Of a stretch of DNA of 64,000 bases, positions 36,639 through 38,329 are shown one piece after another. The stretch is from Moraxella sp. (lineage in GTDB: Bacteria > Pseudomonadota > Gammaproteobacteria > Pseudomonadales > Moraxellaceae). The notes below the pieces were generated by a model. That model was given only the letters and a program-made list of their open reading frames with translations. It ran no database searches and was not told where the DNA came from. Location of the stretch: NCBI GenBank assembly GCA_030530785.1, contig JAUMUJ010000006.1, forward strand, positions 529-64,528. Direction: 5' to 3'. Positions within the stretch are counted from its first letter, which is position 1. Every line of letters starts with the position of its first letter. Made by a program: the position numbers and the translations under genes.

Positions 36639-37766
36639 CTACGATGAATAAAACTCTTTCACCATGGCGACAATCAGATTCTTTTCTTCAGACGTTAGGT
36701 AAGCATGCATTGGCAGGCTAATAACTTTACTAACAATTTCTTCTGACTTTTCCAAACTACTAAATTGATACTCGGAATATACTTGTAATGCAGTAGTTTG
36801 ACTCATCGTTTTAGGATAATATATGGTACTTGGCACACCTTTTTCCTTCAAAAATTGCATCAAAGCATCACGATCCTCTACTTGTAATGTGTATTGAGCC
36901 CAGCTACTAAAAAACCCTTGAGGGATAATTGGTGTCTTCACATCTTCAACGGATGTCAATTCTTCAGTATAGAAATTTGCCAAGTCATTTTTTCTAACCA
37001 ACTCATCATCGAATATCTTTAATTTCTCAAGAAGAATGGCTGCCTGAATGGTGTCTAGCCTGCTGTTATAGCCAATGCAAACATTTTCATATTTATGATC
37101 GCCTTTACCATGTACACGTAAAGATTCCATTTTTTCTGCTAGCTTATCATTATTAGTAAAAATCGCACCACCATCACCATAACAGCCAAGTGGCTTAGCA
37201 GGGAAAAAGCTGGTTGTGGCAATCGATCCAAAAGAACCACTAACTCTGTCTTGAATTTTACCGCCAAAACCTTGTGCTGAATCCTCTACATGCCATAAAC
37301 TGTACTCTTTAGCTATGGCATCAATACTGATATGGTCAGCTGGTAGACCGAACAAATCAACACTAACAATCCCTTTTATGGGATATTGCTTTTCTTTAGC
37401 CCTTTCAATCACTTTTTTGAGATCGACTGGGCAAATATTATAGGTTTCGTCAATATCAACAAATAAAGGAATTGCACCCAATTCTGCGATCACTTCCGAT
37501 GTCGCAAAAAAGGTAAAATTGGTCGTCAATATCATATCGCCTGGTTGTACATCCAATGCCGTCAAAGCCAAACGAATAGCGTCCGTGCCATTAGCACAAG
37601 CCAAACAATGCTTAACTCCAACATATTCAGCCAATTTATGCTCTAATAAACGGCATTCATCACCCATGATATATTGACCGCTATCCAATACTTTTGCTAT
37701 TGCTTGTTCTACCTCTGGACGAATGCGTGCTTGCTGTCTTTTTAAATCAATGAACTCAATATTCAT
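36639..37766 (-). CDS. wbpE: DegT/DnrJ family aminotransferase, WbpE/WlbC-type
   Basis: IEFIDLKRQQARI, CANGTDA, EDSAQ and TSFFPAKPLGCYGDGG closely resemble WbpE. Confidence 0.85.
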   Translation of the reverse strand: MNIEFIDLKRQQARIRPEVEQAIAKVLDSGQYIMGDECRLLEHKLAEYVGVKHCLACANGTDAIRLALTALDVQPGDMILTTNFTFFATSEVIAELGAIPLFVDIDETYNICPVDLKKVIERAKEKQYPIKGIVSVDLFGLPADHISIDAIAKEYSLWHVEDSAQGFGGKIQDRVSGSFGSIATTSFFPAKPLGCYGDGGAIFTNNDKLAEKMESLRVHGKGDHKYENVCIGYNSRLDTIQAAILLEKLKIFDDELVRKNDLANFYTEELTSVEDVKTPIIPQGFFSSWAQYTLQVEDRDALMQFLKEKGVPSTIYYPKTMSQTTALQVYSEYQFSSLEKSEEIVSKVISLPMHAYLTSEEKNLIVAMVKEFYSS

Positions 37767-38329
37767 ATCAGCCCCTTAATTTGATTAAATGTCTCTATCA
37801 GATGTGCTAACGCCTCACCATCAACCCCATTACGTTCCATTCCTACCTTATTCAATCCAAGCTCTCTTGCTGGATTGCCAACATATATATGAGCAGGCTT
37901 GATAATGGACTTTTTGGTTACCACGCAACCCATGCCCAACATGGCTAATGCACCAATTGTTTGGCGTGGGTGCACAATGGCACCCATACCCAGGTTAACA
38001 TTCTCCTGTAGTACTACATGACCACCGAGACTGACGTTAGCTGATAAAATACTACCATCACCTACTTGCACATCATGAGCGATATAAGCTGACTTCATAA
38101 TAAAACAGCCCTTGCTAATGCGTGTATGGCGAACCGTACCCGCATCAATAGTTACATTGCCGGTAATGACCGCACCATCCTCAATAACTACCGTAAAACC
38201 AGTATCCCTACCAAAGTCTTTTTTATACTCAGCAGGGAATCCGATGGTGCAATTTGGTCCTATATAGACATTATTACCAATAATAACTTTATCATCAATA
38301 ACTGCCGAAGGATGAATCTGATTATTCAC
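37763..38329 (-). CDS. LpxA-like hexapeptide-repeat acyltransferase in the WbpD position
   Basis: IHPSAVI, IDAGT, IMKSAYIAHD, LGGHV, IVHP and GNPARELGLNKVGMERNG resemble LpxA; the WbpD-type WHF motif is absent. Confidence 0.75.
   Translation of the reverse strand: MNNQIHPSAVIDDKVIIGNNVYIGPNCTIGFPAEYKKDFGRDTGFTVVIEDGAVITGNVTIDAGTVRHTRISKGCFIMKSAYIAHDVQVGDGSILSANVSLGGHVVLQENVNLGMGAIVHPRQTIGALAMLGMGCVVTKKSIIKPAHIYVGNPARELGLNKVGMERNGVDGEALAHLIETFNQIKGLI

What the first reader, a model, noticed from the sequence alone, without database searches (positions are those of the whole stretch)
37763..38329. LpxA-like acyltransferase replaces WbpD, suggesting a non-acetyl N3-acyl group
Seen: the gene between wbpB and wbpE has LpxA-type motifs (IAHD, LGGHV, IVHP, GNPA..GLN..GMER.G) and no WbpD WHF motif. 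Known: some LpxA enzymes (e.g. Leptospira) N-acylate UDP-3-amino-GlcNAc made by GnnA/GnnB, which belong to the same families as WbpB/WbpE, using acyl-ACP. Inference: a lipid A enzyme paralogue recruited to add a hydroxy-acyl chain (e.g. 3-hydroxybutyryl or longer) to the capsule sugar, which would be a new route to an acylated capsule.
Basis: partly seen in the sequence, partly recalled or inferred. Interest (0 to 1): 0.72.

Follow-up and report, generated by a model that had tools for sequence, protein, structure and literature searches.

The report
Known LpxA-like sugar N-acetyltransferase, not new
The gene is a real LpxA-like enzyme standing where WbpD normally sits, but it matches an already solved Psychrobacter enzyme deposited as the N-acetyltransferase of the same pathway, so an ordinary N-acetyl group is the likely product.

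Summary
It is translationally coupled between true WbpB and WbpE orthologues. By sequence, fold and tree it lies with LpxA/LpxD and apart from WlbB/WbpD-type enzymes.

The inference of a non-acetyl N3 substituent is not supported. The closest solved structure is PDB 8E62, Pcryo_0615 of Psychrobacter cryohalolentis (E 3e-61, Z 30.9, 55% identity over the full length). Its entry title calls it an N-acetyltransferase required to produce the 2,3-diacetamido sugar. A later paper from that laboratory makes UDP-GlcNAc3NAcA from UDP-GlcNAc3NA with acetyl-CoA by the same protocol.

Supporting points:
- The WbpA-WbpB-X-WbpE block is syntenic in Psychrobacter genomes and metagenome contigs.
- The locus epimerase best matches UDP-2,3-diacetamido-glucuronate 2-epimerase.
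- The locus has no acyl-donor genes.
- The genome keeps a separate full-length LpxA beside LpxD.

Verdict: a new member (a Moraxella-like capsule locus) of a known kind of non-orthologous WbpD replacement. Donor specificity was not tested directly, so a small chance of another short acyl group remains. This scan has not noted this protein on other DNA. Interest is low.

The parts
37763..38329 (-). 188-aa short LpxA-like hexapeptide transferase. Predicted UDP-2-acetamido-3-amino-2,3-dideoxy-D-glucuronate 3-N-acetyltransferase, an orthologue of Pcryo_0615.
   Evidence: PDB 8E62 at E 3.3e-61 over the full length. AF2 model pLDDT 95.8. Z 30.9, rmsd 1.3 A, 183 residues aligned, 55% identity to 8E62. 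Conserved synteny. Lies in the tree subclade that holds the Pcryo_0615-like protein.
38338..39276 (-). WbpB orthologue: UDP-GlcNAcA 3-dehydrogenase, GFO/IDH/MocA family.
   Evidence: Pfam PF01408 and PF02894. PDB WbpB 3OA2 at E 1.8e-118. 79-85% identical to the Psychrobacter neighbours.
36639..37766 (-). WbpE orthologue: PLP-dependent 3-aminotransferase that makes UDP-GlcNAc3NA. Its start overlaps the target's stop (ATGA).
   Evidence: PF01041 at E 3e-101. PDB WbpE 3NYU at 9.3e-92 and 8E75/8E77 at 5.5e-90. The overlap is read from the sequence.
47530..48792 (-). WbpA/TviB-like UDP-GlcNAc 6-dehydrogenase, the first step of the pathway.
   Evidence: NCBIfam TviB 487.5 bits and NDP-sugar dehydrogenase 392.5 bits. 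74-75% identical to the copy in five Psychrobacter loci and 53% in a sixth, L016.
42734..43822 (-). WbpI-like 2-epimerase, expected to convert UDP-GlcNAc3NAcA to UDP-ManNAc3NAcA.
   Evidence: PF02350. The best PDB match is UDP-2,3-diacetamido-2,3-dideoxy-glucuronic acid 2-epimerase 8SXV at E 1.4e-68, ahead of UDP-GlcNAc 2-epimerase 4NEQ at 1.1e-53.
35936..36613 (-). Second hexapeptide acetyltransferase of the xenobiotic (Vat/CatB) type. Probably an O-acetyltransferase of the polymer or sugar, not the WbpD equivalent.
   Evidence: NCBIfam Vat/CatB-type hits. PDB VatA at 7e-23 against WlbB at only 1.5e-9. No counterpart in any Psychrobacter locus.

Best explanation
The gene encodes the 3-N-acetyltransferase of the UDP-2,3-diacetamido-2,3-dideoxy-uronic acid pathway.

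Predicted pathway:
- WbpA-like and WbpB oxidise UDP-GlcNAc.
- WbpE aminates C3 to give UDP-GlcNAc3NA.
- This protein transfers an acetyl group from acetyl-CoA to the 3-amino group, giving UDP-GlcNAc3NAcA.
- The WbpI-like epimerase converts that to UDP-ManNAc3NAcA for the ABC-exported capsule.

The enzyme is not of the WlbB/WbpD type. It is a shortened relative of LpxA, missing about two beta-helix coils and the last ~36 residues, and an orthologue of the solved Psychrobacter cryohalolentis enzyme Pcryo_0615.

Inferred mechanism, by homology to LpxA: a trimer with active sites between subunits. His85 (E. coli LpxA His125), paired with Asp86, acts as general base on the 3-amine. The backbone NH of Gly103 (LpxA Gly143) stabilises the oxyanion. 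Asn160 and Arg166 (LpxA Asn198 and Arg204) hold the UDP.

Shown here: homology, fold, synteny and the identities of the neighbours. Inferred: the acetyl-CoA donor, from the orthologue's deposited title and the published protocol, and the catalytic roles.
For: - Closest structure: 8E62 is titled 'Pcryo_0615 from Psychrobacter cryohalolentis, an N-acetyltransferase required to produce Diacetamido-2,3-dideoxy...'. Full-length match at E 3.3e-61; Z 30.9, rmsd 1.3 A, 55% identity.
- Donor: PMC10622841 methods state that UDP-GlcNAc3NAcA was made from UDP-GlcNAc3NA according to Hofmeister et al., with acetyl-CoA.
- Proxy for the characterised cluster: the Psychrobacter MAG protein in L016 scores 371.6 bits to 8E62 over all 186 residues and sits in a WbpA-WbpB-X-WbpE block.
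- Synteny: the same block occurs in five further Psychrobacter genomes and in four metagenome contigs of proteins 49-50% identical to the target.
- Neighbours: WbpB, WbpE and the diacetamido-specific epimerase are the best PDB matches.
- Catalytic residues: His-Asp, Gly-His, His120 and Asn160 are conserved. Met133, present in at least 90% of relatives, stands at LpxA Gly173.
- Subclades: only 8 positions separate the target's subclade from the Pcryo_0615 subclade, none of them at these residues.
- No ACP, ketoreductase, dehydratase or ligase gene lies in the locus.
- A separate housekeeping LpxA exists.
Against: - The acyl donor was not tested here, and the primary paper (Hofmeister et al. 2023, doi 10.1002/pro.4502) could not be read. 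The acetyl assignment for the orthologue therefore rests on a PDB title and a methods sentence.
- At 55% identity, donor specificity is not guaranteed to be the same.
- One subclade-specific difference in the last coil (Ala/Gly146 here, Phe in the Pcryo_0615 group) could change a pocket.
- A Met at the ruler position still allows C10 in Pseudomonas LpxA (my recollection of Wyckoff et al. 1998), so it excludes only long chains.
Confidence: 0.85

Rival explanations
1. One reading: the LpxA-like enzyme N-acylates UDP-GlcNAc3NA with a non-acetyl group (3-hydroxybutyryl or a longer hydroxyacyl, from acyl-CoA or acyl-ACP), giving an acylated capsule sugar.
For: - The protein belongs to the LpxA/LpxD branch and not the WlbB branch, and keeps LpxA's catalytic His-Asp.
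- Donor specificity was not measured.
- Ala/Gly146 in this subclade, against Phe in the Pcryo_0615 subclade, could enlarge a pocket.
- A more distant short relative, P0078, sits beside a MaoC-type dehydratase, so hydroxyacyl use somewhere in the wider family is conceivable.
Against: - The characterised orthologue is deposited as an N-acetyltransferase for the diacetamido sugar, and acetyl-CoA is the donor in the published protocol.
- The last ~36 residues of LpxA's helical domain are missing, and Met133 fills the ruler Gly position.
- The target is no closer to the N-acylating Leptospira LpxA than to other LpxAs (3HSQ: E 1.5e-9; Z 23.0, 24% identity).
- The locus epimerase best matches the diacetamido-specific enzyme.
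- There are no acyl-donor genes in the locus.
Confidence: 0.08
2. The downstream Vat/CatB-like acetyltransferase (35936-36613) carries out the N3-acetylation, and the LpxA-like protein does something else, such as O-acylation of the sugar or polymer.
For: The locus has two hexapeptide transferases. The second scores slightly better against WlbB than the target does (1.5e-9 against 3.4e-5).
Against: - The second enzyme is absent from every Psychrobacter WbpB-X-WbpE locus.
- The LpxA-like gene is always the one wedged between WbpB and WbpE.
- Its orthologue is the named N-acetyltransferase.
- Vat/CatB-type enzymes are typically O-acetyltransferases (established knowledge). The A. baumannii KL3 locus similarly pairs the dga genes with an extra acetyltransferase, Atr2, for 4-O-acetylation (PMC3628348).
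Confidence: 0.04
3. It is a second lipid A acyltransferase (LpxA activity on UDP-GlcNAc or UDP-GlcNAc3N) that merely lies in the capsule locus.
For: The best NCBIfam family is LpxA, and automated sources name relatives 'UDP-N-acetylglucosamine acyltransferase'.
Against: - The scores are less than half the LpxA cut-offs: 112.9 against 226 and 101.3 against 231.
- The protein is truncated relative to LpxA.
- A complete LpxA (317 bits, over cut-off) lies after LpxD and a 173-aa ORF in the fabZ position on another contig.
- The gene is translationally coupled to WbpE.
- It was not found in 30 other genomes of the genus at E <= 1e-20, as expected of a serotype-specific gene.
Confidence: 0.01

Closest known systems
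Pcryo_0615 of Psychrobacter cryohalolentis K5 (PDB 8E62; Hofmeister et al., Protein Sci 2023, cited in PMC10622841)
   Same: Same length (188 against 189 aa) and full-length alignment at 55% identity, with Z 30.9. Same position between WbpB and WbpE, judged from the close proxy L016. Same conserved His-Asp, GGH and GNP motifs.
   Different: This copy lies in a Moraxella-like genome, in an ABC-transporter capsule locus that also has a WbpI-like epimerase, whereas the Psychrobacter sugar is reported from the O-antigen. About 45% of residues differ, and 8 positions separate the two subclades. Activity was not measured for this copy.
LpxA (acyl-ACP--UDP-GlcNAc O-acyltransferase), e.g. E. coli 1LXA, M. 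catarrhalis 5JXX
   Same: It is the closest large family by profile and fold. The catalytic His125/Asp126, Gly143/His144, His160 and Asn198 equivalents are conserved, as is the start of the C-terminal helical domain.
   Different: About 70 residues shorter: roughly two coils and the last ~36 residues are missing. Met replaces the ruler Gly173 and Pro replaces His191. Scores fall below the family cut-offs. It forms a separate clade. The predicted substrate is an amine on a uronic acid, with acetyl-CoA as donor (inferred).
Leptospira interrogans LpxA (3HSQ), which N-acylates UDP-GlcNAc3N made by GnnA/GnnB
   Same: An LpxA-fold enzyme that acylates a 3-amino group produced by a dehydrogenase/aminotransferase pair.
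   Different: No special similarity: E 1.5e-9 and Z 23.0 at 24% identity, weaker than to other LpxAs. It is a full-length lipid A enzyme that uses hydroxyacyl-ACP.
WlbB/WbpD (3MQG/3MQH), the classical UDP-GlcNAc3NA N-acetyltransferase
   Same: Same predicted reaction and a similar size (~190 aa). Sits beside WbpB in other gammaproteobacteria.
   Different: A different hexapeptide lineage: 26.9 bits on one partial stretch, a separate clade (SH-aLRT 95), and the WHF motif is absent. WlbB-type enzymes are described as lacking a catalytic base (my recollection of Thoden & Holden 2010), whereas this protein keeps LpxA's His-Asp.
Acinetobacter baumannii KL3 dga genes plus Atr2
   Same: A capsule locus that makes UDP-GlcNAc3NAcA and has an additional acetyltransferase for O-acetylation (PMC3628348). 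This parallels the second, Vat-like gene here.
   Different: The KL3 N-acetyltransferase is reported there as WbpD-like, not LpxA-like. I did not compare the sequences.

Membership tests
Pcryo_0615-type short LpxA-like UDP-GlcNAc3NA N-acetyltransferases | Full-length sequence similarity to the characterised member | tested here: met
   E 3.3e-61, residues 2-183 aligned to 7-187 of 8E62; 55% identity.
Pcryo_0615-type short LpxA-like UDP-GlcNAc3NA N-acetyltransferases | Same fold and length (short beta-helix plus a two-helix tail) | tested here: met
   Model pLDDT 95.8. Z 30.9, rmsd 1.3 A, 183 of 183 target residues aligned, well above the next hits at Z ~24.9.
Pcryo_0615-type short LpxA-like UDP-GlcNAc3NA N-acetyltransferases | Gene lies between WbpB and WbpE orthologues | tested here: met
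   Window coordinates. The same order occurs in L012-L016, L019 and L101-L104.
Pcryo_0615-type short LpxA-like UDP-GlcNAc3NA N-acetyltransferases | Falls in the same clade as the characterised member | tested here: met
   A 19-row subclade (SH-aLRT 94) holds both the target and the Pcryo_0615-like L016 protein. It came from a quick tree with long branches flagged.
Pcryo_0615-type short LpxA-like UDP-GlcNAc3NA N-acetyltransferases | Uses acetyl-CoA to N-acetylate UDP-GlcNAc3NA | not testable with these tools
   Only indirect evidence: the PDB title and a methods sentence in PMC10622841.
LpxA (NCBIfam TIGR01852 / PRK05289) | Score over the curated family cut-off | tested here: not met
   112.9 against 226 bits and 101.3 against 231 bits. 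The genome's real LpxA scores 317 bits.
LpxA (NCBIfam TIGR01852 / PRK05289) | Full architecture: ~260 aa with a complete C-terminal helical domain | tested here: not met
   188 aa. About 35 residues of beta-helix and the last ~36 residues are missing. Pfam Acetyltransf_11 matches only positions 9-43 of 82 and scores below its cut-off.
LpxA (NCBIfam TIGR01852 / PRK05289) | Catalytic His125/Asp126 and oxyanion Gly143 | tested here: met
   His85, Asp86 and Gly103 are invariant across 35 relatives and align with the E. coli residues.
LpxA (NCBIfam TIGR01852 / PRK05289) | Lies in the lpxD-fabZ-lpxA-lpxB cluster as the housekeeping copy | tested here: not met
   The housekeeping copy is on contig C31, after LpxD and a 173-aa ORF in the fabZ position that was not identified. 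The target lies in a low-GC capsule region.
WlbB/WbpD-type N-acetyltransferases | Sequence similarity to WlbB (3MQG) | tested here: not met
   26.9 bits, with no stretch passing on its own. A true WlbB-type neighbour of WbpB scores E 1.1e-93.
WlbB/WbpD-type N-acetyltransferases | N-terminal WHF motif | tested here: not met
   Absent from the target and from all 31 relatives; present in 3 of 4 WlbB-type proteins.
WlbB/WbpD-type N-acetyltransferases | Clusters with WlbB-type proteins in a tree | tested here: not met
   The WlbB-type rows form their own clade (SH-aLRT 95). The target groups with LpxA and LpxD (85).

The most novel reading that the evidence does not exclude
The target's subclade (this protein plus the P. 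fozii, P. cibarius and NG25-type proteins) is about 55% identical to Pcryo_0615 and has Ala/Gly instead of Phe at position 146. It might have shifted donor specificity to another short acyl-CoA, such as propionyl or 3-hydroxybutyryl, so that the capsule would carry a non-acetyl N3 substituent made by an LpxA-fold enzyme.
Probability: 0.07. Interest if true: 0.55.

Novelty: new member of a known kind. Interest (0 to 1): 0.15.

Why it matters
It matters mainly for annotation. Proteins of this clade are routinely named 'UDP-N-acetylglucosamine acyltransferase' or left as hypothetical, which wrongly suggests a lipid A role. Here the protein should be annotated as the 3-N-acetyltransferase of the UDP-(Glc/Man)NAc3NAcA pathway. 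The case also documents that two unrelated hexapeptide lineages (WlbB-type and short LpxA-like) fill the same step, and that the LpxA-like version occurs in an ABC-exported capsule locus of a Moraxella-like organism as well as in the O-antigen-associated gene cluster of P. cryohalolentis. It does not open a new route to acylated capsules unless a biochemical test overturns the acetyl assignment.

Tried and rejected
- **Primary paper.** I tried to read Hofmeister et al. 2023 (PMC9794024, doi 10.1002/pro.4502). It is not held. Searches for 8E62, Pcryo_0615 and the authors found only the citing paper.
- **Family-wide genome search.** The target protein against 200 genomes of the same family, at a cut-off of E 1e-20, returned only ordinary LpxAs at 36-37% identity and no orthologue. 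The gene is therefore rare in that sample. The Psychrobacter orthologues came from the genome-contig scan instead.
- **Contexts of distant relatives (33-39% identity).** These are heterogeneous, and many of the proteins are 240-250 aa long. I did not use them to infer function.
- **Specificity-determining positions.** Comparing the two subclades gave 8 positions, none at known catalytic or ruler sites. This is not decisive.
- **Acyl pocket.** I could not inspect it in three dimensions, because there are no coordinates in the script box and the active site lies between subunits of a trimer that was not modelled.
- **Lipid A role and N-terminal truncation.** I considered and rejected a lipid A role, and I rejected reading the short length as an N-terminal truncation. 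MAFFT places the missing coils internally while HMMER places them at the N-terminus. With repeat proteins this is ambiguous.
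Full report
**What is there.** ORF 37763-38329 on the minus strand encodes 188 aa from a GTG start.
- It begins 8 nt after the stop of the upstream gene (38338-39276), with AAGGTG just upstream of the start.
- Its TGA stop overlaps the ATG of the downstream gene (36639-37766) in the tetranucleotide ATGA. The three genes are therefore read as one coupled unit.
WHF is absent.

**Which hexapeptide lineage it belongs to.**
- Pfam finds hexapeptide repeats and a weak, sub-threshold match to the start of LpxA domain 2 (PF13720 positions 9-43 of 82).
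- NCBIfam's two best families are both LpxA (112.9 and 101.3 bits), but both fall below half of the curated cut-offs of 226 and 231.
- Against PDB sequences, LpxA chains score E 1e-14 to 1e-18. WlbB (3MQG), the classical enzyme for this step, scores only 3.4e-5 on one partial stretch.
- To obtain WlbB/WbpD-type sequences I searched 400 genomes of the class with the window's WbpB. Seven other genomes hold an orthologue. In at least four of them a 193-200 aa hexapeptide protein follows WbpB. The one I checked matches WlbB at E 1.1e-93.
- In a quick maximum-likelihood tree of 45 proteins, the target and 31 relatives form one clade (SH-aLRT 93). That clade joins LpxA and LpxD (85), and the WlbB-type proteins stand apart (95). 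Long branches were flagged, so the deep order is only indicative.
- WHF occurs in 3 of the 4 WlbB-type proteins and in none of the short LpxA-like ones.

**It is not the housekeeping LpxA.**
- The same genome (1.9 Mb, 57 contigs, 87% complete) has a 257-aa LpxA on contig C31 that scores 317 bits, over the cut-off. It lies after LpxD and a 173-aa ORF in the fabZ position, which I did not identify.
- That LpxA aligns end to end with Moraxella catarrhalis LpxA 5JXX at E 4.7e-132. This also places the organism in or near Moraxella.
- The target was not found at E <= 1e-20 in 30 other genomes of the genus or in the other 170 sampled from the family.
- The surrounding 34-50 kb has 33-39% GC, against 42-52% in the flanks. 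Both are typical of a serotype-specific capsule cassette.

**What it corresponds to.**
- The top PDB hit is 8E62, a 189-aa protein: E 3.3e-61, aligned over residues 2-183.
- An AlphaFold model built on 35 homologues (pLDDT 95.8) superposes on 8E62 with Z 30.9, rmsd 1.3 A, 183 residues and 55% identity. The best LpxA gives Z 24.9 and WlbB gives Z 23.8 over 153 residues.
- The entry title is 'Structure of Pcryo_0615 from Psychrobacter cryohalolentis, an N-acetyltransferase required to produce Diacetamido-2,3-dideoxy-...'.
- The primary paper (Hofmeister et al., Protein Sci 2023) is not in the library. A later paper from the same laboratory states that UDP-GlcNAc3NAcA was synthesised from UDP-GlcNAc3NA 'according to Hofmeister et al.' using acetyl coenzyme A (PMC10622841).

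**Orthology.**
- A Psychrobacter MAG protein in locus L016 scores 371.6 bits to 8E62 over all 186 residues. It lies in a contiguous WbpA-WbpB-X-WbpE block.
- Five further Psychrobacter genomes carry WbpB (79-85% identical to the window's), X (57-62%) and WbpE (61-65%) in the same order, with WbpA (74-75%) nearby.
- Four metagenome contigs encoding proteins 49-50% identical to the target show the same tetrad.
- The window's neighbours are true pathway enzymes: WbpB 3OA2 at E 1.8e-118, and WbpE 3NYU at 9.3e-92 with 8E75/8E77 at 5.5e-90.
- The locus epimerase (42734-43822) matches UDP-2,3-diacetamido-2,3-dideoxy-glucuronic acid 2-epimerase (8SXV, 1.4e-68) better than UDP-GlcNAc 2-epimerase (1.1e-53).
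- The dehydrogenase at 47530-48792 is TviB/WbpA-like.
- The locus therefore encodes the whole UDP-ManNAc3NAcA route, with the short LpxA-like protein in the WbpD slot.

**Anatomy relative to LpxA** (alignment with E. coli LpxA and the genome's own LpxA).
- About 35 residues (two coils) and the last ~36 residues of the helical domain are missing.
- Conserved equivalents: His125/Asp126 = His85/Asp86 (invariant in 35 relatives), Gly143/His144 = Gly103/His104, His160 = His120, Asn198 = Asn160 and Arg204 = Arg166.
- The hydrocarbon-ruler Gly173 of E. coli LpxA is Met133 here, present in at least 90% of relatives. His191 is Pro153.
- From my recollection of Wyckoff et al. 1998, a Met at this position shortens the accepted chain in LpxA. 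This argues against long chains but does not by itself prove acetyl.
- The family-specific Thr-Lys-Lys (138-140) replaces Ala-Gln-Asp of LpxA and may contact CoA phosphates. This is inference only.

**Why the non-acetyl inference is weak.**
- The only characterised member is an N-acetyltransferase for the diacetamido sugar.
- The target is no closer to the N-acylating Leptospira LpxA than to any other LpxA (3HSQ: E 1.5e-9; Z 23.0).
- Only 8 positions cleanly separate the target's subclade from the Pcryo_0615 subclade, and none is a catalytic or ruler position.
- The downstream epimerase is of the diacetamido-specific kind.
- No ACP, ketoreductase, dehydratase or acyl-CoA ligase gene lies in the locus. 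The other genes are glycosyltransferases, one 279-aa ORF without Pfam hits, and the ABC exporter.
- One reservation remains. Position 146 is Ala/Gly in the target's subclade and Phe in the Pcryo_0615 subclade, and I could not examine the pocket in three dimensions.

**The second acyltransferase.** The gene at 35936-36613 is of the Vat/CatB xenobiotic acetyltransferase type. It has no counterpart in the Psychrobacter loci. By analogy with Atr2 of A. baumannii KL3, which O-acetylates GlcNAc3NAcA (PMC3628348), it most likely adds an O-acetyl group.

**How widespread the family is.** An exhaustive search of 1.84 billion cluster representatives finds 38 with E <= 1e-30 and 1839 with E <= 1e-10; the latter figure includes ordinary LpxAs. 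Source annotations are 'UDP-N-acetylglucosamine acyltransferase', 'DapH/DapD/GlmU-related' or 'hypothetical'. Relatives at about 35-45% identity lie in other contexts and need not share the function.

**Verdict.** The proposed new chemistry is not supported, and the replacement itself is already known from Psychrobacter cryohalolentis. This is a new member of a known kind.

Noticed in passing
L105:2972-4570 and L106:2972-4570: A more distant short LpxA-like protein (P0078, 43% identical, 189 aa) has no WbpB or WbpE beside it. It lies after a MaoC-type dehydratase, two GT2 genes and a UDP-sugar dehydrogenase. This would be a better candidate for hydroxyacyl transfer by this family than the window's gene.
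   Followed up: no
L026:3640-5588: In a Burkholderiales MAG, a 242-aa LpxA-like relative (34% identical) lies directly after a 3-hydroxyacyl-CoA dehydrogenase gene (PF02737 and PF00725).
   Followed up: no
window 34000-50000: The capsule-specific region has 33-39% GC, against 42-52% in the flanks. This is consistent with a horizontally exchanged serotype cassette. Its WbpA and WbpB genes are 74-85% identical to the Psychrobacter copies in five of the six loci.
   Followed up: partly
window 49171-49686 (-): A 171-aa ORF covers only positions 32-179 of 347 of the UDP-GlcNAc 2-epimerase Pfam model.
   Followed up: partly
window 35936-36613 (-): A second hexapeptide acetyltransferase of the Vat/CatB type sits directly after WbpE and is absent from the Psychrobacter loci. 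It is probably an O-acetyltransferase of the capsule sugar.
   Followed up: partly
window 45034-45873 (-): A 279-aa ORF inside the capsule cassette has no Pfam match at E <= 0.001.
   Followed up: no
L094-L100: Among seven other gammaproteobacterial genomes with a WbpB orthologue, at least four have a ~193-200 aa hexapeptide protein directly after WbpB. One of these (L099) was confirmed as WlbB-type. None has the short LpxA-like type, so the LpxA-like replacement looks like the minority solution in this sample.
   Followed up: partly
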